A DNA stretch of 60,581 nt, filler included, from Dimargaris cristalligena (taxonomy: Eukaryota), in assembly GCA_003614675.1 (NCBI GenBank). It is 10 parts of 10 records of this genome, joined end to end, with 100 filler letters (N's around TTAATTAATTAA, not from the genome) between each part and the next. Parts side by side here need not be neighbours in the genome. Positions count along the whole stretch, not along the records: positions 6,131 to 12,125 come from ML003561.1; 9 more parts are not named here. One strand, written 5' to 3'. Made by a program: the position numbers and the translations under genes. Below, piece by piece: positions 5,870 to 54,822 of the stretch. Under the pieces are notes generated by a model. It had not been told where the DNA came from and did not search any database. It worked only from the letters and a program-made list of their open reading frames with translations. Numbering within the stretch: position 1 is the stretch's first letter; each line of letters begins with the position of its first letter.

Positions 5870-5941
5870 CTCTCCAACAGGGAATTGAACCCTGGTCTTC
5901 CGCGTGACAGGCGGAGATACTCACCACTATACTATTGAAGA
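5870..5941 (-). tRNA. tRNA-Asp (GTC)
   Basis: TCTTCAATAGTATAGTGGTGAGTATCTCCGCCTGTCACGCGGAAGACCAGGGTTCAATTCCCTGTTGGAGAG, 72 nt. Acceptor, anticodon (TCCGC-CTGTCAC-GCGGA) and T stems pair, discriminator is G, and a T5 Pol III terminator lies at 5864-5860. Confidence 0.93.
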
Positions 5942-6030: not shown

Positions 6031-6130
6031 NNNNNNNNNNNNNNNNNNNNNNNNNNNNNNNNNNNNNNNNNNNNTTAATTAATTAANNNNNNNNNNNNNN
6101 NNNNNNNNNNNNNNNNNNNNNNNNNNNNNN
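6031..6130. other. artificial contig spacer
   Basis: 100 nt of N with central TTAATTAATTAA (stops in six frames). Confidence 0.97.
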
Positions 6131-6362
6131 AGGGAGGGGAGTTCCCAGATAATAGTATTAGTCATCACAAAGGATAGGTAATACTCAGGTAACCAATAAA
6201 TTCAATGTGAAATAATAGAAGGGAAAAAAGGAATGGGAGAAAGCTATTTGTAGTTATACTTTGAATAAAAGTGTAATTGGGCCAGGGGCAGTGTTAATTT
6301 AAGGGTATAGTCCAGTTAGGGGTATATATAGGAAAATACTATACTAATAATTTAGGCTAATT

Positions 6363-6484
6363 TGACTATACTTATTAGGGGCAGGGATAGGGGCTTATTT
6401 ACTTATTAGGGGTGTATTTCCAATAAGTGTAAAAAATAGGTAAATAATAAAAATATATAAAAATATGGTAAGTTTACCACAATT
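6363..6484 (+). repeat. dispersed repeat family 1, more mutated copy
   Basis: Aligns with 30520-30642. The first 77 nt are ungapped with 15 differences, all transitions. Confidence 0.9.
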
Positions 6485-6587
6485 AGTAAGTATATTTCCT
6501 TCATATCCCTTACATATTCCTGCCACTAGCTTTTATAAGTTGGTATTATACCCTGTACCTGATATTAGTGACCCACTTAGCTAAGCC

Positions 6588-6660
6588 TAAGCCTTACCTA
6601 CCATTAGAAGCCTATCCTTAGGACTCTTAATAGACTAAGAGTAGTTAACCTAGGTAACAT
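6588..6660 (+). repeat. dispersed repeat family 2, more mutated copy
   Basis: Ungapped 66/73 identity to 36561-36633. Confidence 0.92.
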
Positions 6661-7863
6661 ATTATGAGTAATTATTTATTTAATTTAATTTCTGTAAAAA
6701 TAAATATAGTTATATGTAAAGATACAGGACCCCCCTTCCCTGTATCTAGGTACTGGCTAAGGGTTATTGAAATACTTATGCCACCTTTGCCTATCAAGTA
6801 TTCCACCTTATCAGGTCTCAAATATGGAACTATTCCAGTATAATATGCATATATCCCCAAGCAGATACTACAATGTTGATTTCAGTACTCAGAAGGAATC
6901 ACACTTCTTTGGCCTTTTAGTTTCTGGCCTAATAGGAGCTCTGGCACAGAAGTCTGTACAAGTTGTACTATGAGTAATATTTAATGTCTAGATTTATGTA
7001 CTATTCAGTACCAACAATGGTGAATTAAGTAATCAGTCCAATGGACAAATGAGTGACCAATGTCAGTGCAGCCCAGTTGGGCCATAATGGTACCATTGGC
7101 ACATATGAGTAGTACTGAAATAGGTGCTAAATAGTTTAAAATCAGCAAAGTAGACCATCAGGCATCTAAATAGCTACAGCCAAAAGAGAGGCTTATTAGA
7201 CACTGCAGCTGAAGAGAGAAAATGGGGTGGAACAAGCCAGCTATAGTCAAAATAGTTATCATTTTTTTTGTGCATTTATTACTAGACTTTGACTATTCAG
7301 TTAATCTATTGCTGACCCTAATTTTAGTAACCCCATGTGTACCTCCAAGGTTGTGAGACTGAAGGGGAATTCTGGAAGAAATTTAGAACATATTGGTAGC
7401 ACAGTTACTGTAAGGTACTCTCAACTGGGTGAACTAAGAGAACGTAGCCTCAGCTGACACAAAGCATTTTCCTGATGAACAGATCCTTCGCTATCAGTTT
7501 TTTGGATTATCTTGGTCACCATACCCATTGCAATTAATACAAAGGATTCCTGACATGGTCCATTCATTATACCATTGACCAGCCAGTTGTTCCATTCTTG
7601 GGCCCCAGTCTGCGTCCCTTTAACTTTGGCACAAAAGCAGTGATGGGTCTATATTTTCATACTGCTCCATAGTTACGTATTACTATGATAACCTATAACC
7701 GAGAAGTGCAGGTCCTCTGGTGCAGTATTCTGGCCCTAAACTTTTTGCTGTCTTTTTATAATTATTTTACTTTTTTTTGTTTTAACAGCAAGGCGAGATT
7801 CCTTTGGTATACTTTTTAAAACTGCTTATTCTTTCTCACTCCTCACCTCTATTGCATATAAGG

Positions 7864-9438
7864 ATGCGAACACACCTGGGCCACCCGCATACTCGGTACT
7901 TTTTCCGCCATTGCCCGACCAGCCCCCAGAACCGGTCGTTTTTGCATTTGCCCTCCCCTGACCTTTTCTGCCGCCGGACCATTAATAGTCGGGCCACCTC
8001 TATCCCGGATTCCCCACCGCCGTTGGCTTCCTTACCCGTACCAAGATCCCCCCCGCCCCTGGCCATTTACGTTCACTGGCCGTATTGCCAAAGTCACTGC
8101 ACCTATTGCAATTTCAACAAGTATGTAGTGGCCCAGCCGGACGTTGAACGACTCACGTCGGCCCTAGACCGGGAGCTACGGACCAGCCTGGCCGAACGCC
8201 CCCCTAACCAAGTGGTACGTAGTATTTATTTCGGCGGGGGAACCCCCAGCTTGGCCCCACCCGCCACCCTGGCCAAACTTTTGAACACGGTGCAACACTA
8301 CTGCCGCATCGATCCCGCAACAACTGAAATCACTCTTGAAGCCAACCCGACCACCCTCGAGACGGGGAAATTACGAGCCTTCCGGGCGCTAGGGATCAAC
8401 CGACTGTCCCTGGGGCTCCAGGCCCTCAATGAGCCGGCCCTGCGGCAGTTGGGGCGGAACCACTCCGTCACCGAAGCCCTGCGGGCCTTGGCCCAATGCC
8501 ATGCGCTATTTCCCAGTGGTGGTGGAGGAGGTATGGGTGTGGGTGTGGGTGGAGTGACGTTTGATTTGATCTACGGTCGACCGGATCAATCGACCGTCTC
8601 CGACTGGGTGAAGGAGTTAAACATAGGGCTAGAGTGTGCTGGGTCGCACATGTCCCTGTACGAACTAACCTGGAAACGCGGCACGGCCCTATTCCGGGCC
8701 CTCGAGGCGGGGAAACTTCAGCGGGCTAGCGACGACTTACTCTCGGAGATGTATGAGGCCACCATCGAGACATGCGCCGCCCATCGGTTCCATCACTATG
8801 AGGTATCTAGCTTTGCCCGTCTGGAGGCGGCGGATTCCTTTCCCGGCCCGGGCCCTACTAACCCACCGGACCTAGTGAACAACGGCTCTACTTTATTAGC
8901 GAATCCGCAGACGTGGCTGTCCTGGCCCCATCAAAGTAGCCACAACTCAGCTTACTGGCGGGGCCTGGATTACGTGGGCATCGGACCCGGGGCCCATGGG
9001 CGAGTTACGGATCCCCAGACCGGCCGGCGGAAACGTACCATCCGTATCCCCCACCCACCGACCTGGATGCAACAGTGCGAAGAATTGGGCCACGGTTTAC
9101 GGCTCGAGACGGAGCTCACCGACCAAGAGGCCCGGGAGGAGTTGCTGATGTTTGGCCTCCGGATGCGGGAGGGTCTGCCTTTGAGTCGCCTCCGGCGGTA
9201 CGGAAACACCAACGATTTGGGCGAGATGATCGATATGGCACGGATGCAGGAGCTGGTGGAGAGCGGGCATTTAAACTGGGGTACCGCCCGGGTTTTCGAC
9301 GATGCTCCCCCCAAAGCTAACCTGACCGCCGAAATAGTTGAAACGTTGCCAGTTTCCATGACCCTATGGCCCACAGCCAAGGGGATCGCCCTGGTGGATA
9401 GTATTTTACCCCGGCTACTCCACGATAAGACCACTTGA
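7864..9438 (+). CDS. RSAD1: radical SAM heme chaperone HemW/RSAD1 family, probably mitochondrial
   Basis: YVHWPYCQSHCTYC (CxxxCxxC), YFGGGTPS, EITLEANP, RLSLGLQ, YEVSSF and the HemW-type HNxxYW motif (HNSAYW). Arg-rich, acid-poor N-terminus from the ATG at 7864. Confidence 0.9.
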   Translation: MRTHLGHPHTRYFFRHCPTSPQNRSFLHLPSPDLFCRRTINSRATSIPDSPPPLASLPVPRSPPPLAIYVHWPYCQSHCTYCNFNKYVVAQPDVERLTSALDRELRTSLAERPPNQVVRSIYFGGGTPSLAPPATLAKLLNTVQHYCRIDPATTEITLEANPTTLETGKLRAFRALGINRLSLGLQALNEPALRQLGRNHSVTEALRALAQCHALFPSGGGGGMGVGVGGVTFDLIYGRPDQSTVSDWVKELNIGLECAGSHMSLYELTWKRGTALFRALEAGKLQRASDDLLSEMYEATIETCAAHRFHHYEVSSFARLEAADSFPGPGPTNPPDLVNNGSTLLANPQTWLSWPHQSSHNSAYWRGLDYVGIGPGAHGRVTDPQTGRRKRTIRIPHPPTWMQQCEELGHGLRLETELTDQEAREELLMFGLRMREGLPLSRLRRYGNTNDLGEMIDMARMQELVESGHLNWGTARVFDDAPPKANLTAEIVETLPVSMTLWPTAKGIALVDSILPRLLHDKTT

Positions 9439-9638
9439 ATCTTCCCTGAATGATAAGTATAGTTTAATCCTTCTATCCGATGCTCCATAACTCCCATGTA
9501 TAATAATTACATTACATTCAGTTAACTTTTCTTCCATATCTCAAAATTTAGTATCGGTGGATATCAGCGGATCTGTAAATAGCAATATACCAGTCAGTAT
9601 CTAATTATAACCAAGCTCGGAGCCTCCCAATGTGTCGC

Positions 9639-11233: not shown

Positions 11234-12125
11234 CGGCTATCAGAGAAGGGAAACAATGGACTAGTTTATCCGATTTACAATATGAGGCGAGGAGCCAAAT
11301 AAAGAGAGAACGCTAGGTGGGTTGGAGCAGTTCGGAGGAATACGTTATATTGTTGGAAAGCGACGGGTGCACGAGGTATGGGGTAAGGGAAGTGATTGTG
11401 AGTGGGGGATTGCTGCCCCCCTCTTCCCAGCGACGTGTCACATTAATATAGTAGTCTATACGAGACTGTTCACCTCAACATGTGATCTTTGTAGGCGCAG
11501 AAAAGGGATTACCAAACCATATATGTAAACCCAGTGCAAATAAATAACATTTCTATTCTTTACCCAACCCAGCCCACTGTGAAGTACATAGAGCATATCT
11601 TTATAAAGCGTCGGCTCAGCCGCTTATCATAAATGGCCGGAAACTTGGGGCATCTTTCGGGAATAATACCACCGAGATGTGGCTACTGCCCAATCCGATG
11701 CATGTTAATAATAAAGGAGGGGGGGATACATTTCGTGACTATAGCATTGTGGTTGATTTTCTCCGCCAACCCCCCTAACTCGCACCCCTCAACGATTGGT
11801 GCAAATGCGACAAGTCCCACTAATTTGAGGAATTGCCGCAACTTGGAACACCCGGTCTCAGGCAATTGGCCAAGGAAAGCAATTTGGCCAACAGACAATA
11901 GGTCACACTGTATCCGCTGGGAAAAGAGTGCTGCTTAACATCCATTGTGAAAGTCAGAGTCGGCCAGTTCACGATATCAGGTAGTGATAACCGGGTCAAT
12001 ATGGGTGAAATTCAGCTTGGTTGTATAAGGTTTTAACAGATATGCGTATGGGAAAATCAGTGGGATATTAATTTTCAACCAGTAGTATTTGCCTCATCAA
12101 ATGGATTTTTCGTTATACAGCCTTG

Positions 12126-12225: not shown

Positions 12226-13055
12226 CGATGCGGAACTGACCCAGGGCTGGTTTCAGAAACCTTAGTGGAGTCTCCAGCGTCTCGTCACTATTACGGCTGG
12301 TATGTAAACTACCCCTGTCGGATACCTACCAGGGCTATTATCTCTCTATTGAACTCGCTAATCTTTTAGTTTAACTATTCACCTAATTCCGCTGGGTTAT
12401 AGTCTAGAACGCCACCAATCAACTGGGGGGGTGGTCATTGGTAGCCAGTGTGCTGAACAGAGCCGCTGTAGATGTATCATGTCAGTTAGATTCACAAGCT
12501 CTTTGGCAACATTGATAACGTTCACTTTCTATATTCCATACTATTCTATAATTTCTTTAAAGCGATACTACGGAGTACGGCAAATACTATATCTTGAGGC
12601 GCAGTACCTTATCTAGTTTAAAGAAGCATCTGTGGGACCAACGCGGAGGTTTCAATGTACATAATACAGTTTACTAATGATAGTCCTATAGGAATATCCT
12701 ACCGACACTCCTGTAGGGTAACTAACAATAAAGAAAATACCACACATTACGCGTATAATTTAACGTGATCGCGACGAGTAGTGATTATCTCGTCGTTCTA
12801 AGCCTGTAGTAGACTCCCAGCGGCTAAAACACATTCCCCGTGGAAACCACTATAACCATACAACTTTTTTTATTTAATATTCAATTGACCTAAGACCTGG
12901 GAATTCTCCATCTTTCAATTACCACTGTTAACCTGTGTGCACCCATTATTCCGTTTGATTCCATTGCAGCTCCAACATTAAATAGTTCTTATCAAACCAT
13001 TTCCTTTATCCCTTTTCTCTTCCATTCCTACTATACCCCCCCCCTCTCAGCTTCA

Positions 13056-16000
13056 ATGGCGGGTCCAACAGACGATCCCTCGGCGCCTGCGCCGCCCCGG
13101 AGCAAGAAATTATCCTCCTATACCGCACCTCAAGAGTTTCTGGACGAGATAGTCCTGACTGGTGCGGATGAGGCCGCCGATCCGTTTGCCGAATACCGTA
13201 AAACCGAGCGGGTGATCGCTAAACGGGAGGACGAGTACCACGCCCGGCGTTTGAAGCGCACGCTTTCACCCGAACGGGCCGATCCATTTGCCGATACTGA
13301 CGCTGCGGCGGCGGGTGGCCGAAGTTATGCCGATGCCATGCGTGAGGTGGAAATAGACCGTGAGCACCAGCGGGTTTTGCGCCAAGTAGCCGACCTGAGT
13401 AAGAAGGCCGGGGAAGAGGGCGCATCCAGTAGTGGCCCTGCGGAGCCCACGGCCTCCGCCAGTGGTCGGCGGCGTCGCCGTTGGGATGTGGCTACCCCCG
13501 TGCCACAATCAGGCCCAGCAGCTGACCACACCGAAGCCGCAGCTTTAGCCGACTTGTCGAAAAGCCGCTGGGACGAAACCCCCCGGGCCGCCCCCGTTAA
13601 ACGCAGTCGTTGGGATGCCACCCCCAAGTTCGATGCGACGGTTGAGGACACTCCGAAACGGACCGCCCGGTCCCGCTGGGACGAGACCCCAGTAGGTGCT
13701 TCGGGCACCCAGTTTGGTGAAACGCCTGTGGGTAATCTAGGACTGGTTACCCCCGTCGGGGGTTCAGCCGGAATGATACCCATGACCCCCACTAGTCAGT
13801 TTGAGCGTGAACTCGATACGCGGAATCGGCCCCTAAGTGACGCCGATTTAGACGCAATGCTGCCCAGTAAGGGCTACGAGGTCATCGAGCCACCAGCCTC
13901 ATACGCACCTATTCATACCCCGTCCCGTAAACTCATGACTACTCCGACACCCATGGGTGCGGGAGGATACACGATGCCCGAAACCGAGCGTCGCCAGCAG
14001 TTCGACGTGCCTCCCGAAATCCCCGGCTTACCCTCACTGAAACCGGAGGATATGGAGCATTTCGGCAAATTAACGGACCAAAAGGACGAGTCCGAACTTA
14101 CCGCCACGGAGGCCAAGGAACGCCGAATCATGAAACTTCTCCTCAAGATCAAGAACGGGACTCCGCCTATGCGCAAGGCCGCTCTCCGCCAAATCACTGA
14201 CAAGGCCCGCGATTTTGGGGCCGCCCCTCTTTTTAACCAGATCCTGTCCCTGCTCATGTCACCGGCTTTGGAAGATCAGGAACGCCATTTGCTGGTCAAG
14301 GTCATCGACCGCATTCTCTACAAACTGGATGATCTCGTCCGGCCTTTTGTGCACCAAATTCTGGTAGTGACTATGCCCATGTTGATCGATTCGGACTACT
14401 ACGCGCGTATCGAGAGTCGCGAGATCATTTCCAACCTGAGTAAGGCGGCGGGATTAGCCACCATGATTGCCACCCTGCGCCCCGATATCGATTCCACCGA
14501 CGAGTTCATTCGTAATACGACGGCGCGGGCCTTCTCCGTGGTGGCCTCGGCCCTCGGTATCCCAGCTCTGCTCCCGTTCCTCAAGGCGGTGTGCAAGAGT
14601 AAGAAGTCCTGGGAAGCCCGGCACACGGGTATCAAAATCATTCAACAGATTGCCATCCTGATGGGCTGCGCCATCTTGCCCTATCTCAAGGGTATCGTAG
14701 ATATCATCGCCCACGGCCTGGAGGATGAACAGCAAAAAGTGCGGACCATGACCGCCTTGGCCATCGCTGCCTTGGCCGAAGCGGCTGCCCCCTACGGTAT
14801 TGAATCTTTCGACTCCGTTCTCAAACCCCTCAGGACCGGTATTCGTAAACACCGCGGCAAGGGCCTGGCCGCCTTCCTCAAAGCCATTGGCTACATTATT
14901 CCACTTATGGAGCCCGAGTACGCCATCTACTACACCCGGGAGGTGATGGTGATTCTCATCCGCGAATTCCAGTCGCCCGACGAGGAAATGAAGAAGATTG
15001 TGCTCAAGGTCGTCAAACAGTGCGCGGCCACCGACGGGGTGGAGCCCCAGTACATTCGCACGGAAATCCTACACGAGTTCTTCCGTAACTTCTGGATTCG
15101 GCGCATGGCTCTCGACCGCCGCAACTACCGCCAGGTGGTTGATACGACGGTGGAACTGGCCAATAAGGTTGGCGTGGCCGAAATTGTGAGTCGTATTGCC
15201 CAGGACTTGAAGGACGAGTCGGAGCCGTATCGCAAAATGGTCATGGAGACGGTGGATAAAATTGTCAGCCAGCTGGGCCTAGCTGACCTGGACGACGAGC
15301 AGCTCAAACACCTATTCGACGGGATCCTGTACGCTTTCCAAGAACAAACCGCGGAGGACGTGGTGATGCTAAACGGGTTCGGCAGTGTAGCCAATGCCAT
15401 GGGAGGCCGACTGGAGCCTTTTGTTGCCCAATTGGATGTGCTGATCCGCTGGCGGCTTAATAACAAGTCAGCCAAGGTACGGCAGCAGGCGGCGGACCTG
15501 GTGGCCCGTATAGCGGCCAACGTACAGGCCTGCGGCAAGGAGGAGAACCTCCGGCATTTGGGTACCGTCATTTACGAGCATCTCGGTGAAGAATACCCCG
15601 AGGTCCTGGGCTCTATCCTAGGCGCCCTGAAGGCGATTGTCAATGTGGTCGGTATGCACAACATGACGCCACCCATTAAGGATCTGCTGCCCCGCCTCAC
15701 TCCCATTCTGCGTAACCGGCATGAAAAAGTGCAAGAGAACTGTATCGATTTGGTCGGCCGTATCGCTGATCGAGGCGCTGAGTTCGTCAGTCCCCGGGAA
15801 TGGATGCGCATCTGTTTCGAACTGCTGGATATGCTCAAGGCCCAGAAGAACGGTATCCGGCGTGCCGCGGTCAACACTTTTGGTTACATCGCCAAGGCGA
15901 TCGGACCCCAGGACGTCCTGAGTACGCTCCTGGACAATCTGCGGGTCCAGGAACGGCAGAACCGGGTCTGTACCACCGTGGCCATCGCTATTGTGGCCGA

Positions 16001-16553
16001 AACGTGTGCCCCGTACATGGTCCTGCCGGCCCTGATGAACGAATACCGGGTGCCGGAACTGAATGTCCAGAACGGGGTGCTCAAGTCACTATCGTTCCTG
16101 TTCGAATATATTGGGGAAATGGGCAAAGACTACGTCTACGCCGTGACACCCCTCTTAGAAGATGCCCTGGCCGACCGGGACCTGGTGCATCGCCAGACCG
16201 CCTGTGCGGCTATCAAACACATGTCCCTGGGCGTGGCCGGACTTGAATGCGAAGATGCTCTCACGCATTTGCTCAACCTCGTCTGGCCCAACATCTTCGA
16301 AACTTCACCCCACGTCATTGGCGCGGTTTTGGAGGCCATCGAAGGGTTACGGGTGGCCCTCGGCCCGGGGGTCCTTTTACAATACCTATTACAGGGGCTT
16401 TTCCACCCCGCCCGTCGGGTCCGTGAAATTTACTGGCGTATCTATAACTCCGTGTATATTGCCAGCCAAGGCGTGTTGGTTCCATATTACCCACCAGTTG
16501 ATGACGATAAACATAACCATTATCGCATTCCTGAATTGACCTACCTACTCTAA
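13056..16553 (+). CDS. SF3B1: U2 snRNP splicing factor 3B subunit 1 (Hsh155/Prp10), intronless
   Basis: RWDxTP repeats, RNRPLSD p14-binding region, and a HEAT region closely matching SF3B1 ([49 protein letters not shown]). Confidence 0.98.
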
Positions 16554-18773: not shown

Positions 18774-19357
18774 AGTATAGATGGCTGTGGAGTTGATTCG
18801 GGGGGTCACAATAGTTATTTGGTAGGGTTGGCTCCGACATTGTCAGGGCAAGTCGTGTGGGTTATACCGGTGCCAAATGCCGGAGAAAGACCTCCCTTGC
18901 AATTTCCTACCCAATAATGTAAATTGAGGTCGACTGACGGCAGGGGGGGGATGTTTAGATAATATAGTGTGGAGTTGGTAGAAATGGGCCTTGTTTACCG
19001 ATTCGGCACTATCCGCACCAGAAGCACCAAGGCTACTAATACTCGCTAACTGGTCGTTTCGCTTGCCGTGGTGTATTCCAAGCGGGCCGTCACGCTGGGT
19101 TTGCAAGCGAAAATCCCCCTGGTCTGGGGGGCCCAACCTAACCACCCTAACTAAGCCTGGGGCAGGGGAACCTGTCTCAGACCGCCGCGACGACCCACTT
19201 GGCATTGCCTTACCTCTCCTCCCTTCCTTGCCTCTTATTAATGCATTCGTCTAATCCAACCTATACCCTAATATAGTCTCATCTTAGGCCTTTGGCAACC
19301 TCCCCCCCTCCCCGTCACCCATACCTTTCCTACTCTCCCACCCATAGTCCGGCCACC

Positions 19358-22300
19358 ATGAGCGGGTTTGGGTCCTCCATCATGACGGAGCTGGCCTCCC
19401 TTTCCAGCGAGGCCCGACGCAAGTACCCCGAAATTAAAGAAGCGTCGGAGCGGGTTATTCTACTCATCCGGTCGTCCAAGAACAAGCCCCCCGCCGACCT
19501 GGCCCTGGAGCTGGCCCATTCGGCCGACACCATATTACCCTTTACGCTCGCCTGTACCACCAAGCAGGTGAAACTGATTACCATCGCCATGGGCTGCATG
19601 CAACGACTTACCACCCATTCGGCCATCCCCGCCGACTCCATCGCCACCATTCTAACCACCCTCAATGACGTGGTGTCCCTGGGCGTGGAAATCCAGCTCC
19701 GCATCCTGCAGCTCCTCATGCCCCTCTTATCCAACTACGAGTCCGTCCATGGCCCGGTGCTGGCCCAGGCCCTCAAACTGTGCTTTAAATTACAGGAGTC
19801 CAAAGTAGGCGTCGTCAATAATACCGCCGCCGCCACCTTGCGGCAGCTGGTGATCCTCGTCTTTGAGAAGGTGGGCCGGGAGGACGAGGCCCTGCCCCCG
19901 ACCCTGACGGTATCCCAATCGGAGTCCCCGGACCCCGGCCTCAGTTCCAGCGCCCGGGACGCCCTCGCCGTTTTCCAAGACCTCTGCCTCTTGACCGGGG
20001 GCCTCTCCCCGCAGTTTATTGATATTGTCGGATTGGCCCGTACCTTTGGCCTGGAGCTGATGGAGTCGGTCCTCACCTACCATTCGTCCGTGTTCCGTCG
20101 CCACCGCCCGTTCGCCGCCCTCCTCCGGGACCACATGTGCCCCGTCGTCATTAAGTTGTTCTCCGATAGCTCCGATTTCCCCAGCTACATGCGTCTCATG
20201 CGCCTGTTCTTTATCTCCATTAAACAGCTACGGACTCTGATCCCCGTGGAGTGCGAAATTTATATCACCATGCTCATTCGTTTGCTCGACCCCGACTACC
20301 CCATGTGGCAGCGGGTTCTCGCGATGGAAGTGTTCCGGGGCATGTGCGGGGACGGCGAGCTGCTTCGGTTTCTATACTCCGAGTACGATCTACGGGAGCG
20401 GGCCAAACCCGTCTACGCCGACTTTATCGCCGCCCTCGGGCGCATCGCGACCGAGAAGCCCAATTCCATCGGTATTGCCAACGGGTCGGCGGCGACTCCC
20501 CAGCCCACGGGGACCGCACTGACCACGGCGGCGGAGGCCCCCGGCGGGAATGGCCCCGAGGGGTCCGACTCCGTGGACCCCTCGGTGCTCAGTCGGTCCC
20601 TGGCGCTCGTGCGGGTACAGTGCCTCGATCAACTCGATAAAGTTGAGCCACCGCCCATTCCCGACTCGTATTTGTTCTACCTGAGTATGATGTGTCTAAC
20701 CGGGGTCGTGGACAAGCTGGCCGCGACCACCCTGCCTTTGGTGACGCAGTCTCTCCCGCTGGCGGCCAGTGGGGCCTCACCTGTTCCCGAGCCCCTGTCC
20801 GACCCCACAGTACCGGTGCTCACCCGCGGCCTGAACCTCGACCAGCACGCCCACGGTGCCCTTCTGCGAACCGTCCGGGGGATGACCGATGCCGCCTGGC
20901 CCGCGCTACTGGCCGCGTTCTCCTTTTACCTCACCACCCGCCTGGACGACGAACTGTTCCGCCAGCTCATGACCGCCTACCAGCATCTCACCAACCTCTC
21001 GGGGGCCCTTGGCCTGGGCACCCCGCGGGACGCCCTGCTTACGAGCCTGTGTAAGCACTGCCTCCCGCTGACCTCGGACAAATTCACTCCCCTGCGCGAC
21101 GCCCCCAGCGTCAGCCACGCCTCGGCGGCGTCGATTCGGGCCAATTCCATCTCCTCTGAGTCCGTCCTGTCGCCGGGCAAGCCCCGGCTCCCGGCCCTGC
21201 TGGACTCGGCCAAACAAACCATGTCCAGCACCAGTGGCGCCATCAACCAACTGGTCACCTCCATCACGGGGGCCAGCTCGGCCCGGTCCGCTCTGATTGT
21301 GCCCCCCTCGGAACGGAACCTTTACTGCCTCCACACTTTGATCCAGGTGGCTCAGTTTCTGGGGGATACCCTCAACGGCTCCTGGTACATGATCCTGGTG
21401 ACACTTCAGCAGGCAGACGAACTCATGGCCGCGGGCTCCGCCGATGGGCGATCCGGGTGGGACCTCGCCAAGCGGCTGTCGGGACCCGATGCCTCCCGGC
21501 ACAACAGTATTCGTTCCGGGGACCCTCACTTCCGGCGTCGCGACACCGCCATGGGCCACGCCTACCCCAAGCCCGGCAGTCGGACCAGCTCGATTTTGAG
21601 CACCCTGGGCCCCGGCTCCGCACCCCTGCGTTACCAGCACTACGCCGAGCTCTGCCAGCGCCTGTTCGATCGGGCGGTTCATTTAGCCCCGACCTCGTTT
21701 CTCTTCTTCATTCGGGCCCTGTGCGCCCTCTCGTGTGACCTGAGCGGGGTCCCCCTGCCGGCGTGCGACGCCGACGCGTGCCGCCAGGTCCTCGAGCAGG
21801 GGGGCATGCACCGCAAGGTCACGGTGGCCGACCAGCCTTCCTTCGCGCTGGTGTACCTGGAGTACATTGTCATCCATAACCTCCTAACTCTGGTCCGGGC
21901 TGACGTTCAGGCAGAAAAGGAGGACCCGTCCGACGAGACCTCCTCCATCACCCCCTTCCAGCTCATTATGGCCCACCTGGTCGACGTCGCTACCGGGGCC
22001 CCGCCGGTCCCACCCACCATGGCCCTCCAGGCCTGTGACATTATCACCGAGATTGCCGAAGTGGCGTTAACCACCGTCGACTGGTCCCTTTCGGGGGGTG
22101 ATTCGGGGTCCACCCCCTCCGAGAAACCGCAGCCCTATCCGTCGTGGGGGGCCATCCAGAGCCGGGTGCTGGAACCACTGGCCCGAATTGTGCACCAGGC
22201 CATCCCCCACTCCACTTCCCTGGCCCTGGAGCCGGATAATGCCCTTCGCATTCAAACCGACCCTCCGACACCGTCACCCGAGGGTTCCCGCCCGGGGTGG

Positions 22301-24305
22301 TCGTCGGCTTCCCAACTCGAAACCGCCCAAATGGCCCTAGAAACCCTGAACCGGGTCCTCCACTCCGCCGGCCACTCCATCGAACCCAGCGCCTGGGCTA
22401 TCATCTTTGATATGATCGCCATTGGCTATGACGCGGACCGCTCCAACGACTCTGACGACTTGGCCCCCAGCGACTTATCCGCCGCTATGTCCCACATGGC
22501 CCAAACCCTGGCCCAGGGCCGGCGGGCCGTGGCGGTCCCCCGCGGACCCAACCAGACGGCCCTCATTCGCCATGCGTTTCCCTGTCTCCAGCTAGTGTGT
22601 ACCGATTTTCTGGCCTCCCTGTCCCCGCAGTGTCTCGGTCGCTGCATTCGCCTTCTGGGATGCTACGGCCATCAGCCGTGTGACGTCAATGTAGCGCTCA
22701 CCGCCATTGGGCTTTTTTGGAATTTTTCCGACTTTCTGCAAACCACCCGTGGCGCCGCTGTCGACTCCCCCGCCCCCGCCGGCGATCTTACCCAGCATCC
22801 CCTGTCTACCTGCGACCAACTCTGGTTGCTCCTGCTGCATCGCCTCTCGATTCTCTGCGTCGACCAGCGCCCGGAGGTGCGCAACGGGGCCAGTCGAACC
22901 CTGTACCGCACCCTGGATTTGCACGGCCACGCCCTCAACGGAACCGTGTGGGAGCTGATCTTTTGGCATATCCTGTACCCCCTGGCCAAGGCCGTTTTGC
23001 GCAACCGGGATCAGCTCGCCGGCCTCGGGACCGCACCCGTTGCCGCCGGATTTAATCTGGAGGAGGGCGATTTACGGGTCCGAAGTCCTTACACCGACCA
23101 CATTGGTTACCACAATCTAGGGGAGTCGGCCGACCCGCCGGCTAATCCCCCCGGCGACTGGATTAACGCGTGGAACGAAACCGTCACCCTGACCGTGACC
23201 GGCCTGACCAAGGTGATTCGGCTCTACTGCCTGCCCCACGCCCTCCGAAGCACCCCTTTGGCCACCATGTACCCCATTTGGCGCTGGTTCTGCCGCTATT
23301 GGGAGGTTTGCGTGTCGCACAGTGCTAACCTCTACCACACACCCGAGGTCACCAAGGGGCTTTTGGGCAACCTTAAACCCTCGTGGCCCCTTTGGATGCC
23401 ACGGCCCCCGCGGACTCCCTCTCCCCGGCGGCGTGGTTCTGGTGGCAGTGTGCTTGGTTGGCCTGGTACAACTGTGGACGTGCCCTGGTGGGCCGGCTTC
23501 CGACAGATGCTAACCAGCAGCCCGCCATCACGGCTGACCTAGCCGCCTACCGGGTGGAATTTCCCTCCGCCGCCGCCGCCCCGCCGGCCTTTGATTTGGC
23601 CGAGGAGGCGTGGCCGGTACTCCCGGACTCCGTACCAATCAACTCCCCCCTATCCACCTCTCCACCTGGCTCGGCCACTAAGTACCCCCAGGAACTGCTA
23701 TCCGATTACTTGGGCATCTTCCATGACCTGGTGGGGTTGGCCAGCTGGATGGGCGGGGTGACCTCCCCCGCTGACTCTGAGCGTACGCTCCGGTTTATGG
23801 TGGAACGCCCTGCGACTCATCTGGGGCCCCTTTTGGCCAACGTGCAGGCCGTTGCCCTATACCGCCACGCCCTCTGTTTTGCCTCCGACGCTCAGAAACT
23901 GGGCCCGGCCCAGGCAGCGGCCTTGAAAATCCAGAAATGGGTGGCCCGCACCGTCTTTTGCCAGTTGCCTGTGCAGGCCACCGAGCCGCACCCGGCCCCC
24001 GCGCTGGAGCTGGATCCGTCGACTCACGCCCAGGTACTGGCGATGGTTGTCTCGAGTTGGTTCAACTATTGGGCGGCCCCCTTGGCCTGCCTCCTTGACC
24101 CGCCAACGAATGCCTTTCCCTTCCTGACCGGCCGGCGATGTATCGGTGAGACAGGCGGAAGCCAGTGCTAGCATACCCGTCGCCAACGCCAAAAAGGTGG
24201 GGGGGTGCTGGCGACGCTGGTAGCGCTGCGGGGCGGAGGCTGGGGGAGGACTAGGGGTGGGGCGGAAATAAGTCTGTAGACGTAGGTAATCCCCCAATTC
24301 GGCCG
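19358..24305 (+). CDS. MON2: MON2 (Sec7-related endosome/Golgi trafficking protein), 3'-truncated, with 1-bp frameshift near 23378 and inverted terminal 24128-24305
   Basis: LSSEARRKYPEIKEASE N-terminus, VNNTAAATLRQL, RTFGLELMESVL, CLDQLDKVEPP, LQLVCTDFL, DVNVALTAIGLFW and DQRPEVRNGA are MON2 hallmarks. Coding continues in the 23383 frame. Confidence 0.92.
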
Positions 24306-30490: not shown

Positions 30491-30519
30491 ACAATATAAT
30501 AATGAAAATGGAGGAAAAA

Positions 30520-30642
30520 TGACCATACTCATCAGGGGCAAGGGCAGGGGCTCATTCACTCATCAGGGGCGTACTTCCGATAAGTGCAAAAAATGGATTA
30601 AAAATAAAAGTAGGTAAAAAATGTGGTAAGTTCACCACAATT
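30520..30642 (+). repeat. dispersed repeat family 1, less mutated copy, possible element terminus
   Basis: Homologous to 6363-6484. Internal CTCATCAGGGGC duplication. Ends in hairpin TGTGGT-AAGTTC-ACCACA, after which homology stops. Confidence 0.85.
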
Positions 30643-31230
30643 TCCAAGAAATATTACCCCTTCTACTAACCAGTTGTCTTTCTTGGGCCATGCTGCCCTC
30701 ATTCCCCTATTTGCTACTTTATATGTAATATAAGTATTCACCATTCCCAAAAGTATTAGTACCATCTCTGATTTATTATAGTCCTCTCTTGTAGCCTATT
30801 TGCTACTTCATAAGTATTACCTTTGAAACTATTTCTGAGAATTATGAAATCTACCATCAACTGGTTATGTTGCTAGGGCCATGCTGCTCACTATCTCTTA
30901 TTTGTTCTTTCACAAGGATTACCTTAGTAGGTATTTCCCAGAAGTAAACTACTTTCTTTTGATTAGTAGGCTTCATATGAGACCATGCTTCCCCCTCTCT
31001 TTAATTTGACTATTTACTATTGTCCATTTATATTATCATGTGATTATAATAAAATCCAGTTTACTAAAAGAAGATATTATCCCTTTCCCTACTAACTCCC
31101 ATCTGACACTATCCATATCCAAAATATATATAGCAACCTTTTTCTCCCTTCTTATAGTCAATATTGTCTATTATCATTACCTCTCGCCCACCAAGACTGC
31201 CCCCTGCCCACCAAGACTGCCCTACCCACC

Positions 31231-32295
31231 ATGACTGCCCCCAACTCCCCTACCATGAGTCCCCTCCCTACCAACACTACTTCCCTGAGCCCCCTCCCTA
31301 GCATCACCCCTCCCTCCAGTCCCTTGTCCACTACCACTGAACCAGAACCTATGGCCACTGAGTTAGCCACCACCACCACCACCAAAGATCAGGACCCCCT
31401 CCCTGCCAAGATAGTTACCACCACCAGTACCAACACTGCCACCACTGACCTGGAACCCAAGCCAGCTACCACCATGACCACCATGACCACCAGCACCAAG
31501 GACCAAGACCACCTCCCTACAAAGTCAGCCACCACCACTGCCACTGCCACCAGGAGATCCAGCAAAAGGCCCCTTCCCCTCAATAGGGCTTCCCTCTTCA
31601 AGCCCTTGAAGTATCATATGGTGTCTTGTTTGGAAGGTGCTGACATCCTAGACAAGACCCATGAGGGCTGTCATTATGGCCCCTATGTCCTATATGACAG
31701 ACTTTGCAGCCAGAATGTCACTTGGAAGACAATTGGTCTTGATGTTTTCACTATCACTGCTGAGTGTGAGATATGTAAGTGGGTAACTACTTCACCGTAT
31801 TTCCCCCCACCCCCCCTGCCTTAGGTTCAGGCAGAGTTGGAGTATTATTGTCTTCCCTCCACTTGTCAGGTAGTGCCCCCTCCCTCACCTACCTCCTCCC
31901 AGTCCAGTCCTTTTAAGCAGCCCAAGGTGCCCACAGTCAACAAGTCCACCACCAGTCCCACTAGGCCCACTACCAGTCCCACCAATAGTAACACTAGGTC
32001 CACCATTCTCACTGCTTCCAAGAGGTCTGCTTACAATGATGTTAGTAGCTGCAGCAGTTTCACCAAAAGGTCCTACATTAGTGACTCTGAAACTGAGTGG
32101 TCTGATAGATCATCTTATTCTGACTTCAGCCATGTGTCCAGAGGCCCCAGATCTAAGCTTCCTGGAATCCCTAAGCACATCTTCAAAGTGAGGCCCAAGG
32201 ACCCCACCTTTGGTCCCCCCGTTGTCAAAAAGTTAAAGACCAAAGAGGGTGAAACTACTTATAACACAATCTATAACATCAACTATTATAAATAG
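31231..32295 (+). pseudogene. Thr/Pro-rich protein with integrase H2C2 zinc-binding domain, interrupted at TAG 31822-31824
   Basis: ILDKTHEGCHYGPYVLYDRL…VTWKTIGLDV…CEIC (31642-31779) fits the retroelement integrase HHCC fold. ORFs 31231 and 31837 share a frame. No DDE core is visible. Confidence 0.6.
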
Positions 32296-32699
32296 AGGCA
32301 TTCTTTTTCTTTGTCATTTTTCTTAATAAAATTATCATTAGATTTATTATGTACTGGTTGTTTATGATGGTTATGATATTGACTATGCCTTTATTATATG
32401 TTTAGATGATGTGGTGAACAAAGCAAGTTATACTTTAGAAGTTGAGTTCCCTGTAATGTAGTAATTGTGAGATATTAGTAATAAAGTGCATACCTTATTG
32501 AAACAAAGTGAATTACTGATGATGGATTAGTATTAAAAATTTGGCTATGTCATTTGAGTGACTTGGGTGATGAGACTATTAATACTATGTCTTTGACTTT
32601 TTGTATAGTAGTAGAGCATATATAGAAACTAGATTATTCACTTATCAACTATACCAAGAGACCATCTCAGTAATAGACAACTATTTTCCTATAGTAGTC

Positions 32700-33600
32700 T
32701 TGCCAATAGGATGGTGGGTATGCCTCTCCTACCTTCCTTAGTTAAGGGTTACTGAGTAGCTACTTGGAGTGTAGCAAGTAAGGGATAGCTAAATAGCCCC
32801 CTTATCTCCTATACTAGGCCACTGTCATGGTAGACTACTGCAACTGTCTCATAGTTGACATTGCCTTTAGAAAATGGGGTATGCCTCTCCCCCCTTCCTA
32901 AGTTGTAGTAAACTAGATAGTCACCTAGTAAAGTAAGTAAGATACAGACTCATTCCCTATCTACCTTACTATATCACTGACTATACTGAAAACTACCACT
33001 AGCTTATAGTAGTCTGGCTTACTGAGTGACCAGCTCAGGGTCTCTTTTAGGGCTTACCTCCCTATGCCAAGTCTTACAATAGACAGTGGGTGATAGTCAT
33101 AGTATCCCCTTAACTGCTATACTGAGTAACTGCCTTAGTATAGTACTACTATAGTCTCATAGTTGACTTAGTCTTAGGAAAGAGTGTATGCATCCCCCCC
33201 TCCCTAAGTTGTACCACTCTAAGTAGCTACCCAGTTTAAGTAGTGAGTTAAAGTTATACTATTTCCCTAACTGTCCTATGGTGCCATTGTCTTTCAATAA
33301 GACTGCTACCACTACATAGCACCCTGGCTATAGTGAGGAGAGTCTGCCTTTCTCCCCATCTACTTGGGCTAACTGAATGACCAGCTCAGAGCCTAACTAT
33401 ATCCCTTACTTCATACTATGTAGATGACATTAGTATAAGAGAACTACTATCTCAGTATACTACAGTATATGGTTAGAGGGTATGTATCCCCCCCTCCCAA
33501 GATTATAGTGTTCCAGGTAGTACTCCACTACTATACCAAGACCACCTACACTATACCCCACCTAAGGCTGTGGCATAATGAGTGACCAGCCCAGAGCCCA
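32700..33600. repeat. degenerate tandem array (about 150/300-bp period)
   Basis: GGGTATGCCTCTCC(C)n-CCTAAGTT-like motif recurs near 32716, 32877, 33184 and 33478. GTCTCATAGTTGAC occurs at 32846 and 33153. TGA(G/A)TGACCAGC occurs three times. Confidence 0.7.
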
Positions 33601-34196
33601 CCTAACTAGCTGCTGCCTCAGCTATCTCTCTTCATGCCCTACTGGGCCTTTGCCTTGAGGGAGTGATTATCTCTGCCCCCATTTCCCAGCCCCACCCCCA
33701 AGACTGGGAGGCTAGCCATACTTCAGACCCCAAAAAAAGTATAGCTGCACCATTCTGGGTGCCCCCTTTCTCAGGCTATCCCTGTATGCAGTTTAAGGAC
33801 TTACCCAGGTCCATGTATTATGGCCTCACCAGGCTGGGGCTTAAGGCCCCCCAGGCCATGATTGTAAGGGCCCCCACATCCCCAGGTACCCTCCCAGCCC
33901 CCACCCAGGTAAGACTCCCCTCACTACCTTAAGAGGGTTGAGAGGCCATCTGCCGGAGACCCCCTTCTCATGGTTAAAACGGGTCATTCAGGCAAAACAA
34001 GTCTGCAGCTAAATTTCATGGTATATTATTAAATTCTCAAACTTACTGAGAGCCTATAATTAAATATAGAAATTCTTACTGATCATTCCCATAATTTGAT
34101 GCATGCCAGCTCAAAAAAACAAATGTAAACAACTAAATATTATTGTAAGCAATCAAAATGTAAATAAATAAATTTAAAGTAAACAAAAACATAAAA

Positions 34197-34329
34197 ATAG
34201 ATAACAATTATAGATTCAGACTCAGAAAAGATAGGGGATTCAAACTCAGCATAGATAAGATATTAAAACTCAGCATAGATAACAATTATAGATTCAGACT
34301 CAGAAAAGATGGGAGATTCAAACTCAGAC
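34197..34329. repeat. direct duplication, 78-bp period, with AAACTCAG submotif
   Basis: ATAACAATTATAGATTCAGACTCAGAAAAGAT at 34201 and 34279. Confidence 0.85.
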
Positions 34330-36560: not shown

Positions 36561-36633
36561 TAAGCCCTGCCTACCATTAGAAGCCTATCCTTGGGACTCT
36601 TGATGGACTAAGAGTAGTTAACCTGGGTGACAT
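36561..36633 (+). repeat. dispersed repeat family 2, less mutated copy
   Basis: 66/73 identity to 6588-6660. Confidence 0.92.
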
Positions 36634-54649: not shown

Positions 54650-54822
54650 ATACACCCCCTGCCCCTGACTGGATGATACCCCTGCATTCACACTGCCCCT
54701 GGCCTAACTGCTTGCCCATGGCTTTTTATTCAACATAAACCAAAAACAACACCACTTCTTATTCTTCTAACATTTTTACATATTTATCTCCTATTTCTTA
54801 GCTAACGGGTCGATTATAAGCC

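What the first reader, a model, noticed from the sequence alone, without database searches (positions are those of the whole stretch)
6363..6484. RIP-type CpA->TpA hypermutation between two repeat copies in an apparently non-Dikarya fungus
Seen: 6363-6439 aligns without gaps to 30520-30596 with 15 differences, all transitions, 14 of them toward A/T in this copy. They are 9 CpA->TpA, 1 TpG->TpA, 2 at CpG and 3 others; 9 of the 10 CpA sites of the other copy are converted. Known: CpA->TpA is the signature of repeat-induced point mutation in Neurospora and other Pezizomycotina (RID/Masc1-type C5-methyltransferase), while ordinary 5mC decay hits mainly CpG. Inference: the gene set suggests an early-diverging fungus, where I do not know CpA-directed RIP to be established. 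This could be an undescribed repeat-targeting mutator or strong non-CG methylation.
Basis: partly seen in the sequence, partly recalled or inferred. Interest (0 to 1): 0.85.

Follow-up and report, generated by a model that had tools for sequence, protein, structure and literature searches.

The report
RIP-like repeat hypermutation in a zygomycete
Short repeated DNA in a fungus of the order Dimargaritales, far from the ascomycetes where repeat-induced point mutation is established, carries C-to-T changes concentrated at CpA sites, but only a few hundred bases could be examined.

Summary

The pattern extends to two neighbouring repeat fragments. Pooled, 20 of 35 CpA/TpG sites are converted against 8 of 77 other cytosine contexts (Fisher p=3.8e-7).

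The window is ten ~6-kb contigs joined by N spacers. The less mutated copies all sit at contig ends.

The organism is not Dikarya. MON2 and a radical-SAM gene on the repeat-bearing contig match Dimargaritales best (47-52%, next 33-43%). A tree places the latter inside Dimargaritales with 100/100 support.

Composition is RIP-type only at 6131-6730 and 32501-33500. CpG is almost erased over much larger repeat or transposon-like blocks (9 seen against 198 expected in 30491-35500).

Best reading (0.55): C-to-T hypermutation of repeats at CpG and CpA, linked to a cytosine methyltransferase. This would be a new lineage for a known kind of process.

No genome was available, so the enzyme, genome-wide generality and mutation polarity remain open.

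The parts
6335..6484 (+). AT-shifted copy of a low-copy repeat. The finding's core is 6363-6439.
   Evidence: Aligns to 30493-30642 at 76.8% over 151 columns. The core has 15 of 15 transitions. Summed word depth is about 7 times single copy in run X5.
30493..30642 (+). GC-richer copy of the same repeat, at the 5' end of contig piece 6
   Evidence: It keeps 10 CpA and 2 CpG in the 77-nt core.
6503..6660 (+). Copy of a very abundant short interspersed element (E1). The core is 6576-6659.
   Evidence: loose ends lie before 6576 and behind 6659. Summed depth is 83,910 against 201.8 for single copy in X5. It differs from 36561-36633 at 7 sites, 6 of them G>A at TpG.
36561..36633 (+). GC-richer E1 fragment at the very start of contig piece 7
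   Evidence: 90.4% identity over 73 nt, E=2e-22.
6147..6322 (+). Copy of the most abundant short element (E0)
   Evidence: summed depth 280,119 against 201.8 in X5, and a 154-nt contig lies on 6147-6298. 6277-6322 matches the reverse complement of 54662-54707 at 82.6%.
54662..54707 (-). E0 fragment at the start of contig piece 10
11998..12125 (+). Copy of a third abundant short element (E2), at the 3' end of piece 2
   Evidence: loose ends lie before 11999 and behind 12123, with depth 129,858 in X5. It matches 5700-5799 at 69% with gaps. The differences there are mixed, not specific to CpA.
6131..6730 (.). Block with RIP-type dinucleotide composition
   Evidence: TA/AT 1.44, (CA+TG)/(AC+GT) 0.67, rho CpG 0.00, rho CA+TG 0.65, rho TpA 1.44.
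6731..7785 (.). Single-copy non-coding flank that is depleted in CpG only
   Evidence: rho CpG 0.13, rho CA+TG 1.21, rho TpA 1.00. It is single copy. Over 6131-7785, 5 CpG are seen against 53.7 expected.
30491..35500 (.). 5-kb transposon-like block that has almost no CpG
   Evidence: 9 CpG seen against 197.8 expected. There is a weak Integrase_H2C2 match in ORF 31096-31824 (E=0.0011, 19.5 bits, below the 25.5 cut-off).
32501..33500 (.). Second block with RIP-type composition, made of degenerate internal repeats
   Evidence: TA/AT 1.77, (CA+TG)/(AC+GT) 0.78, rho TpA 1.51, no CpG. Internal repeats are shown.
7786..9438 (+). Radical-SAM (RSAD1/HemW-like) gene on the same contig as the mutated repeat. 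It serves as a taxonomic marker.
   Evidence: Pfam. Best foreign hits are three Dimargaritales at 51%. The tree gives a 100/100 clade.
19277..23542 (+). MON2 open reading frame, a taxonomic marker
   Evidence: the five best hits are all Dimargaritales (47-52%), and the next are 33-37%.
12894..16553 (+). SF3B1 in a single open reading frame
   Evidence: the best foreign hits are 70-72% (Glomeromycotina, Basidiobolus, chytrids, Mucorales). No Dikarya appear in the 120 rows listed.

Best explanation
The stretch is one degenerate copy within a cluster of short interspersed repeats in the genome of a Dimargaritales fungus (Kickxellomycotina, Zoopagomycota).

I infer that this copy, together with the neighbouring repeat fragments, underwent directional C-to-T mutation. 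The mutation was aimed at cytosines followed by A and by G. It converted most CpA/TpG sites to TpA and removed every CpG.

The most likely cause is a repeat-directed system that depends on a cytosine methyltransferase of the DNMT1/DIM-2/RID superfamily. Repeats are marked in CG and non-CG (CpA) contexts, and the marked cytosines are then deaminated. This could happen in a RIP-like burst or at a greatly raised rate, as described for Dim2 in Zymoseptoria.

**Shown:** the repeat status, the taxon, the context bias, and the regional composition.

**Inferred:** the polarity (C>T rather than T>C), the link to methylation, and whether homology is the trigger.
For: **Spectrum**
- 28 of 38 pooled differences are C>T or G>A toward the piece-2 copy. 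Four are the reverse transitions and 6 are transversions.

**Context**
- CpA 20 of 35 against 8 of 77 for other contexts, p=3.8e-7.
- The base after the C decides: TCA 10/13, CCA 5/10, GCA 4/8, but TC followed by any other base only 1/10. A rule set by the following base fits a methyltransferase-type dinucleotide target better than a deaminase that reads the preceding base.

**Near saturation with little background**
- In the 77-nt core 9 of 10 CpA are changed with no transversion.
- In 6588-6660 all 6 TpG are changed with no transversion.

**The affected DNA is repeated**
- 1222-1814 contigs per run lie on the two ends of piece 2.
- The 5.2-kb body is single copy, with 0 differences in X1, X3 and X4.

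**Composition**
- RIP-type indices occur only at 6131-6730 and 32501-33500.
- Unique non-coding DNA has rho CA+TG of 1.1-1.2 and rho TpA of about 1.0. The bias is therefore regional and not the genome's general spectrum.

**Evidence for past cytosine methylation of repeats**
- CpG is almost absent: 5 against 54 expected in 6131-7785, and 9 against 198 expected in 30491-35500. Genes keep 0.85-1.0 of expectation.

**Literature**
- 5mC restricted to repeats is reported for the kickxellomycete Linderina (PMC11258239, passages read).
- Dim2 promotes C>T at CpA in transposons during mitosis (PMC8016269, abstract read).
Against: - Only 242 aligned bases in three pairs carry the signal.
- **Polarity is not proven.** It rests on assuming that the GC-richer state is older. 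One search lists other copies with C or G at only 7 positions in 6363-6439, and only 6 of those are among the 15 differences. For 5 of the 7 E1 differences no row was displayed. The table was truncated (60 rows hidden), so the TpA state may be the commoner one among the abundant E1 copies.
- **Abundant families are less clear.** Across E0 and E1, differences between the piece-2 copy and the other copies are mixed in context. The excess of A>G and T>C over C>T and G>A (about 2.2-2.7 to 1) is close to what the 31% GC content alone would give.
- The E2 pair shows no CpA specificity.
- The elements are 85-155 nt long and very abundant, with many copies at 95% identity or more. That does not look like an efficient Neurospora-type defence.
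- Strand coordination is weak (p=0.27, 0.036 and 0.5).
- No methyltransferase gene could be looked for.
- A kingdom-wide k-mer screen found RIP-like signatures only in Ascomycota (PMC12543289, abstract and section 9 read). That screen used only scaffolds above 50 kb.
- Reviews describe 5mC as scarce in Zoopagomycota (PMC11258239, PMC13297926, passages read).
Confidence: 0.55

Rival explanations
1. Ordinary divergence among old repeat subfamilies. On this reading the differences are a few inherited diagnostic substitutions plus slow CpG decay, and the CpA excess is a small-sample accident or a consequence of the element's own TCATCAGGGG-type motif.
For: - The sample is small.
- The core contains an internal duplication of a motif with several TCA sites, so the sites are not fully independent.
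- Differences in the abundant families are mixed in context.
- Many variants exist in the runs: 460-571 laid contigs are under 90% alike.
Against: - Fisher p=3.8e-7 for CpA against other contexts.
- The same bias appears on the opposite strand in a different element, where 6 of 6 TpG are converted.
- Two separate blocks show TpA excess with CpA/TpG deficit, while other non-coding DNA does not.
Confidence: 0.15
2. Editing by a single-strand cytidine deaminase of the AID/APOBEC type, for example on replication or reverse-transcription intermediates of the elements. This would give strand-clustered C>T changes.
For: - TCA is the most converted trinucleotide, at 10 of 13.
- One segment changes almost only on the top strand and the next only on the bottom strand: 10/13 against 2/5, and 0/2 against 6/6.
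Against: - TC followed by C, G or T is converted only 1 time in 10, whereas CCA (5/10) and GCA (4/8) are converted. The preceding T is therefore not the rule.
- The complete CpG loss in the same DNA is not explained by such an enzyme.
- That fungi have such deaminases is recalled, not checked here.
Confidence: 0.1
3. Reverse polarity. On this reading the AT-rich state is the older one, and the GC-richer copies gained TpA>TpG / TpA>CpA changes. One route would be A-to-I editing of an RNA intermediate, which prefers a preceding U, followed by retro-copying.
For: - For 5 of the 7 E1 differences the runs showed no displayed row. The TpA state may therefore be the majority among the abundant copies.
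- The strand-limited pattern would suit an RNA-level process.
Against: - The AT-rich copy is the compositional outlier: rho TpA is 1.44 against about 1.0 in other non-coding DNA. That points to a process which makes TpA rather than one which removes it.
- The two CpG/TpG and CpG/CpA differences lie on both strands.
- The piece-2 block has lost all CpG, which fits C>T.
- Heritable A-to-I hyperediting is not known in fungi outside sexual-stage mRNA editing in ascomycetes. This is recalled, not checked.
Confidence: 0.08
4. A technical artefact: cytosine damage during amplification or sequencing, or mis-assembly of repeat variants.
For: The contigs are short (~6 kb) and the repeats sit at contig ends.
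Against: - A contig of run X4 reproduces 6329-6612 with 0 differences.
- A contig of run X5, from another study, reproduces 6204-6347 with 0 differences.
- The 5.2-kb single-copy body has 0 differences in X1, X3 and X4 and 4 in X5.
- Random damage would not spare unique DNA.
- Caveat: X1, X3 and X4 may be the source sample, so they are not independent.
Confidence: 0.03

Closest known systems
Repeat-induced point mutation (RIP) of Neurospora crassa and other Pezizomycotina, dependent on RID/Masc1 with a DIM-2 branch
   Same: - C:G to T:A transitions, with CpA as the preferred target.
- Near saturation of target sites.
- Affected DNA is repeated.
- TpA/ApT is high and (CpA+TpG)/(ApC+GpT) is low, with a positive composite index in the affected blocks.
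   Different: - The host is a zygomycete of the Dimargaritales, not an ascomycete.
- The elements are 85-155 nt long and persist in very large numbers. Classical RIP needs duplications of several hundred bases (recalled).
- CpG is erased even more thoroughly than CpA.
- No RID homologue, premeiotic timing or homology dependence could be tested.
Dim2-dependent C>T at CpA in transposons during mitotic growth of Zymoseptoria tritici (PMC8016269, abstract read)
   Same: - A CpA-directed C>T bias confined to methylated repeats.
- No sexual cycle is needed, which would suit a mycoparasite whose sexual stage is probably rare (recalled).
   Different: - It is an ascomycete system.
- Whether this genome has a DIM-2-type enzyme or non-CG methylation is unknown.
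RIP-like TpCpG hypermutation in Pucciniomycotina (PMC3318451, abstract read)
   Same: Hypermutation of repeats by C>T outside the Pezizomycotina.
   Different: The target there is TpCpG. Here CpA dominates, and TC followed by a base other than A is spared.
Composite-RIP-index signal in Zoophthora radicans, Entomophthorales (PMC11105155, passages read)
   Same: - The same phylum-level group (Zoopagomycota).
- The authors suggest that RIP may act outside Dikarya.
   Different: - That evidence is a compositional index only, and the authors state caveats.
- Here there is alignment-based, context-resolved evidence, but only on a tiny sample and in a different subphylum.
CpG decay of methylated transposons (DNMT1/DNMT5-type CG methylation)
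   Same: Near-total loss of CpG with raised CpA+TpG in 6731-7785 and 30491-32500, while genes keep their CpG.
   Different: It does not explain CpA>TpA in 6131-6730 and 32501-33500, where CpA+TpG is depleted instead of enriched.

Membership tests
RIP (Neurospora/Pezizomycotina type) | Differences between repeat copies are almost only C:G>T:A transitions | tested here: met
   - Core: 15 of 15 are transitions and 14 go toward A/T.
- Pooled: 28 of 38 are C>T or G>A, 4 are reverse transitions and 6 are transversions.
- Polarity is assumed.
RIP (Neurospora/Pezizomycotina type) | CpA is the preferred dinucleotide target | tested here: met
   CpA 20/35, CpC 2/41, CpT 4/32, CpG 2/4, p=3.8e-7.
RIP (Neurospora/Pezizomycotina type) | RIP indices: TpA/ApT above 0.89, (CpA+TpG)/(ApC+GpT) below 1.03, composite index above 0 (thresholds recalled) | tested here: met
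   - 6131-6730: 1.44 and 0.67.
- 32501-33500: 1.77 and 0.78.
- Other non-coding DNA: 0.94-1.08 and 1.21-1.25.
RIP (Neurospora/Pezizomycotina type) | Acts only on duplicated DNA above a length and identity threshold | tested here: inconclusive
   - The affected DNA is repeated, and the unique flank lacks the CpA signature.
- The individual elements are only 85-155 nt long and remain abundant, with many copies at 95% identity or more.
RIP (Neurospora/Pezizomycotina type) | A RID/Masc1-type C5-methyltransferase is present in the genome | not testable with these tools
   No genome is held for this window. None of the ten contigs carries a DNA_methylase domain among the 10 long ORFs scanned.
RIP (Neurospora/Pezizomycotina type) | Occurs premeiotically in the sexual phase | not testable with these tools
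   This needs crosses or mutation-accumulation lines.
RIP (Neurospora/Pezizomycotina type) | The host belongs to Pezizomycotina (the known range of RID-dependent RIP) | tested here: not met
   - MON2: the five best hits are Dimargaritales at 47-52%.
- RSAD1-like gene: Dimargaritales at 51%, in a 100/100 clade.
- No Pezizomycotina appear in the 120 rows listed.
CpG decay through CG methylation of repeats | Strong CpG deficit with a matching CpA+TpG excess, confined to repeats and transposons | tested here: met
   - 9 against 197.8 expected in 30491-35500, 5 against 53.7 in 6131-7785, 4 against 26 in 36561-37000. Genes keep 0.85-1.0 of expectation.
- rho CA+TG is 1.17-1.21 in the blocks that are depleted in CpG only.
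AID/APOBEC-type deaminase editing | The target is defined by the base before the C (TpC or similar), whatever base follows | tested here: not met
   TC followed by C, G or T: 1/10. CCA 5/10 and GCA 4/8.
AID/APOBEC-type deaminase editing | Strand-coordinated clusters | tested here: inconclusive
   Top-strand against bottom-strand CpA conversion: 10/13 against 2/5 (p=0.27), 0/2 against 6/6 (p=0.036), 2/6 against 0/3.

The most novel reading that the evidence does not exclude
A genuine repeat-triggered C-to-T hypermutation defence that prefers CpA operates in Dimargaritales (Kickxellomycotina, Zoopagomycota). If so, RIP-type genome defence either predates the Dikarya or arose a second time in zygomycetes. 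It may use a DNMT1-superfamily enzyme that is not RID, and it acts alongside complete CpG erosion of repeats.
Probability: 0.22. Interest if true: 0.8.

Novelty: new member of a known kind. Interest (0 to 1): 0.58.

Why it matters
RIP and its CpA signature are treated as a hallmark of filamentous ascomycetes. A 2025 kingdom-wide screen again found such signatures only in Ascomycota (PMC12543289). Reviews describe early-diverging fungi as nearly devoid of 5mC (PMC13297926).

An alignment-based CpA>TpA signature in a Dimargaritales genome, next to kilobase blocks that have lost almost all CpG, would have three consequences:
- Cytosine-directed genome defence is, or was, active in a lineage where it has not been described.
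- It would give a concrete place to look for the responsible enzyme.
- Screens that drop fragmented assemblies can miss such cases.

If the signal does not hold genome-wide, it is only a curiosity of a few short repeats.

Tried and rejected
- **Whole genome.** None is held. No genome-wide alignment of copies and no search for DNMT, RID or deaminase genes could be run.
- **Public metagenome contigs.** A scan for a 23-nt invariant core of element E1 found 0 matches, so no extra copies could be fetched.
- **Earlier notes of this scan.** Nothing was found by place, by words or by sequence.
- **Structured RNA as the origin of the repeats.** ARAGORN and Rfam found only a tRNA-Asp and a 5S rRNA elsewhere, and nothing on the repeats.
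- **Polarity from decayed coding sequence.** The open ORFs of piece 6 gave only a sub-threshold Integrase_H2C2 match, with its zinc-binding residues intact. No polarity information came from this.
- **Degenerate internal repeats at 32640-33595.** Aligned. C/T or G/A differences with a conserved neighbour were YA 53, YT 23, YC 22 and YG 0. The alignment is noisy (223 transitions, 260 transversions) and the counts are not normalised, so I do not rely on them.
- **Majority rule from the sequencing runs as a polarity test.** Rejected. The table was truncated, a saturating process would make the mutated state the majority, and the overall A>G+T>C excess is close to what base composition predicts.
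- **Protein Atlas and PDB for taxonomy.** Not informative.
- **Copy numbers.** The figures quoted are ratios of summed word depth. The tool warns that these are not true copy numbers.

Full report
**1. What the window is**

The 60,581-base window is not one locus. It is ten pieces of about 6 kb, joined by identical spacers of 44 N, TTAATTAATTAA and 44 N. Piece 3 is 5,991 nt long. The database records the window's own SF3B1 protein on a contig of exactly that length, so the pieces are whole short contigs.

The finding's two copies therefore lie on different contigs: piece 2 (6131-12125) and piece 6 (30491-36460). No whole genome is held for the window.

**2. The observation**

6363-6439 aligns without gaps to 30520-30596 with 15 differences.
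- All are transitions, and 14 go toward A/T in the 6363 copy.
- Nine are CpA>TpA, one is TpG>TpA, two are at CpG and three are others.
- 9 of the 10 CpA sites of the other copy are converted.

The pair is highly significant in a self-comparison of the pieces (E=1.1e-25 over 123 nt).

**3. The pattern extends beyond the finding**

The same AT-rich block of piece 2 matches the first bases of two other contigs:
- 6588-6660 against 36561-36633: 90.4% identity, with 7 differences, 6 of them G>A at TpG.
- 6277-6322 against the reverse complement of 54662-54707: 82.6% identity.

Pooled over the three pairs (242 aligned bases):
- 28 of 38 differences are C>T or G>A toward the piece-2 copy. Four are the reverse transitions and six are transversions.
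- By context, 20 of 35 CpA (counting both strands) are converted, against 2 of 41 CpC, 4 of 32 CpT and 2 of 4 CpG.
- CpA against the rest gives Fisher p=3.8e-7.

The base that follows the cytosine is what decides. TCA is 10/13, CCA 5/10, GCA 4/8 and ACA 1/4, while TC followed by any other base is 1/10.

Within the 77-nt core and within 6588-6660, the target sites are nearly saturated (9/10 and 6/6) with no transversion at all. This argues for a much higher rate at these sites than elsewhere. The edges of the longer alignment (6335-6362 and 6440-6484) do contain transversions and an indel, so the copies are not very recent duplicates.

A fourth pair, 11998-12111 against 5700-5799, is only 69% alike with gaps and shows no CpA specificity.

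**4. Repeat status**

Five public runs hold contig piece 3 (SF3B1), the stretch that was searched. Four are from one sample that may be the source. One is from another study.

Contigs of four of the runs were laid on the whole of piece 2 at 80% likeness or more.
- Between 1,222 and 1,814 contigs per run were laid, almost all on the two ends of the contig.
- The summed word depth in run X5 is 201.8 over the single-copy body. It is 280,119 over 6131-6330, 1,443 over 6331-6530, 83,910 over 6531-6730 and 129,858 over 11931-12125.
- The tool warns that this is not a copy number. As an order of magnitude, though, three short elements are present in hundreds to more than a thousand copies. Loose ends place them at about 6147-6322, 6576-6659 and 11998-12125.
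- The repeat of the finding (6335-6484) is low-copy: 1-11 contigs per variable position.

The less mutated copies sit at contig ends because the assembler broke there.

The single-copy body has 0 differences in three runs. It has 4 in the run from the other study, all transitions: two of CpA/TpA type and two of CpG type. A contig reproduces 6329-6612 exactly. In the independent run another reproduces 6204-6347 exactly. Sequencing damage or mis-assembly is therefore unlikely.

**5. Polarity is the weak point**

That the GC-richer state is ancestral is an assumption.
- For the finding's repeat, other contigs carry C or G at 6387, 6388, 6396, 6400, 6407, 6413 and 6431, in varying shares. The copies are mosaics of C and T at CpA sites.
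- For 5 of the 7 differences in the abundant element no row was displayed. The table was cut (60 rows hidden), so the TpA state may be the commoner one there.
- In the abundant elements, the displayed differences between the piece-2 copy and the rest are mixed in context.
- The overall excess of A>G and T>C over C>T and G>A (about 2.2-2.7 to 1) is near what the 31% G+C of the block predicts.

Composition supports C>T. The piece-2 block is the outlier, with TpA in excess at 1.44, against about 1.0 in other non-coding DNA.

**6. Composition of the window**

Two classes of unusual DNA exist.

*Class I has lost CpG only.*
- 6731-7785 is single copy, with rho CpG 0.13.
- 30491-32500 has rho CpG 0.06.
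- 36561-37000 has rho CpG 0.15.
- In all three, CpA+TpG is raised (1.09-1.21), as expected from decay of methylated CpG.

*Class II has lost CpG and also CpA/TpG, with a TpA excess.*
- 6131-6730: TA/AT 1.44, (CA+TG)/(AC+GT) 0.67, rho CA+TG 0.65.
- 32501-33500: TA/AT 1.77, (CA+TG)/(AC+GT) 0.78, rho CA+TG 0.88.

*CpG counts.*
- 5 against 53.7 expected in 6131-7785.
- 9 against 197.8 expected in 30491-35500.
- 4 against 26 expected in 36561-37000.
- Genes and the other contigs keep 0.7-1.0 of expectation.

Ordinary AT-rich non-coding DNA shows neither signature strongly (TA/AT 0.94, ratio 1.21, rho CpG 0.60). The CpA signature is therefore local to some repeats.

Piece 6 carries a sub-threshold match to the retroelement integrase zinc-binding domain (E=0.0011), so it is probably a decayed transposon.

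**7. Taxon**

- SF3B1 (a single 1,219-codon frame) is at most 70-72% identical to any foreign protein. The best are Glomeromycotina, Basidiobolus, Bifiguratus, Neocallimastigomycota, chytrids and Mucorales. No Dikarya appear in the 120 rows listed.
- MON2 gives five Dimargaritales as its best hits: Tieghemiomyces, two Dimargaris and two Dispira, at 47-52% and 849-1303 bits. The next are 33-37% and at most 763 bits. Agaricomycetes appear only low in the list, and there are no Pezizomycotina.
- The radical-SAM gene on piece 2 itself gives three Dimargaritales at 51%, then Basidiobolus at 42%.
- In a maximum-likelihood tree of 25 sequences chosen from that list, it falls inside a 100/100 clade with them, sister to Dimargaris at 92/86.

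The contig that bears the mutated repeat thus belongs to a Dimargaritales fungus (Kickxellomycotina, Zoopagomycota). It does not come from a host or a contaminant.

**8. Mechanism**

My best reading (0.55) is a repeat-directed C-to-T process that targets CpG and CpA and is linked to a cytosine methyltransferase. The reasons are:
- the target is defined by the following base;
- it co-occurs with erased CpG in the same DNA;
- it is regional and coincides with repeats;
- it is close to saturation.

I cannot tell a homology-triggered burst (RIP proper) from a strongly raised deamination rate of densely methylated repeats. The latter has been shown for Dim2 at CpA during mitosis in Zymoseptoria (PMC8016269, abstract read).

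5mC confined to repeats has been reported for the kickxellomycete Linderina. CG plus CHH methylation with DIM2 and DNMT1 has been reported for Phycomyces (PMC11258239, passages read).

Rivals:
- subfamily divergence plus chance (0.15);
- a deaminase that reads the preceding base (0.10), disfavoured by TC-not-A at 1/10;
- reverse polarity through RNA editing and retro-copying (0.08);
- artefact (0.03).

**9. Against a Neurospora-like defence**

The elements are short (85-155 nt) and extremely abundant. Hundreds of laid contigs are 95% or more alike to the piece-2 copies. If a RIP-like process exists, it is weak, length-limited, or extinct.

**10. What is in print**

- A kingdom-wide k-mer screen concluded that only Ascomycota show repeat-enriched RIP-like signatures. 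It used only scaffolds above 50 kb, which would exclude an assembly like this one (PMC12543289, abstract and section 9 read).
- RID-dependent RIP was found only in Ascomycota (PMC4352252, abstract read).
- TpCpG hypermutation occurs in Pucciniomycotina (PMC3318451, abstract read).
- My searches for RIP with Zoopagomycota, Dimargaris or Dimargaritales, or early-diverging fungi found no report for Dimargaritales or Kickxellomycotina.
- Supplementary tables could not be opened and may list this lineage.

**11. Verdict**

- The taxonomic premise is confirmed.
- The mechanism is plausible but rests on 242 aligned bases plus two compositional blocks, with polarity inferred.

It is best filed as a probable new lineage for a known kind of process: cytosine-directed hypermutation of repeats. 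It is not a new kind of system. It is worth a genome-wide test.

Noticed in passing
6031-6130, 12126-12225, 18217-18316, 24306-24405, 30391-30490, 36461-36560, 42516-42615, 48514-48613, 54550-54649: Nine identical spacers (44 N, TTAATTAATTAA, 44 N) show that the window is ten separate ~6-kb contigs strung together. Distances and synteny between the pieces mean nothing.
   Followed up: yes
6147-6322, 6576-6659, 11998-12125: Three short interspersed elements of about 85-175 nt have a summed word depth hundreds to about 1,400 times that of single-copy DNA in all four runs. Their type (MITE- or SINE-like) is unknown. ARAGORN and Rfam found nothing on them.
   Followed up: partly
30491-35500 and 6131-7785: CpG is almost completely lost: 9 against 198 expected, and 5 against 54 expected. 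Genes keep their CpG. This suggests past or present CG methylation of repeats in a lineage where 5mC is described as scarce.
   Followed up: partly
24576-24694 (+): A full-length 5S rRNA gene (92 bits) stands alone in an AT-rich, CpG-poor stretch: 14 CpG against 37 expected in 24406-25600. It is a dispersed 5S gene, not part of an rDNA unit in this contig.
   Followed up: no
5870-5941 (-): A tRNA-Asp(GTC) gene lies about 70 nt downstream of an E2-type repeat fragment at 5700-5799.
   Followed up: no
31096-31824 (+): An open frame rich in proline, threonine and serine ends in a sub-threshold retroelement Integrase_H2C2 match (E=0.0011). This is probably a relic of an LTR retrotransposon.
   Followed up: partly
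25613-28807 (-): A 1,064-codon open frame has no Pfam match at E up to 0.001.
   Followed up: no
12894-16553 (+): SF3B1 and MON2 are each uninterrupted frames of more than 1,200 codons, so the genome is poor in introns. The SF3B1 search listed no Dimargaritales among its 120 rows, although the MON2 and radical-SAM searches did.
   Followed up: no
10073, 11228, 11678, 11781: The run from the second study differs from the window at four single-copy sites. All are transitions: two in CpA/TpA-type and two in CpG-type contexts. This is too few to say anything about the spectrum in unique DNA.
   Followed up: partly
18629-18780 and 48119-48155: (TA)n microsatellites with similar flanks on two contigs.
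   Followed up: no
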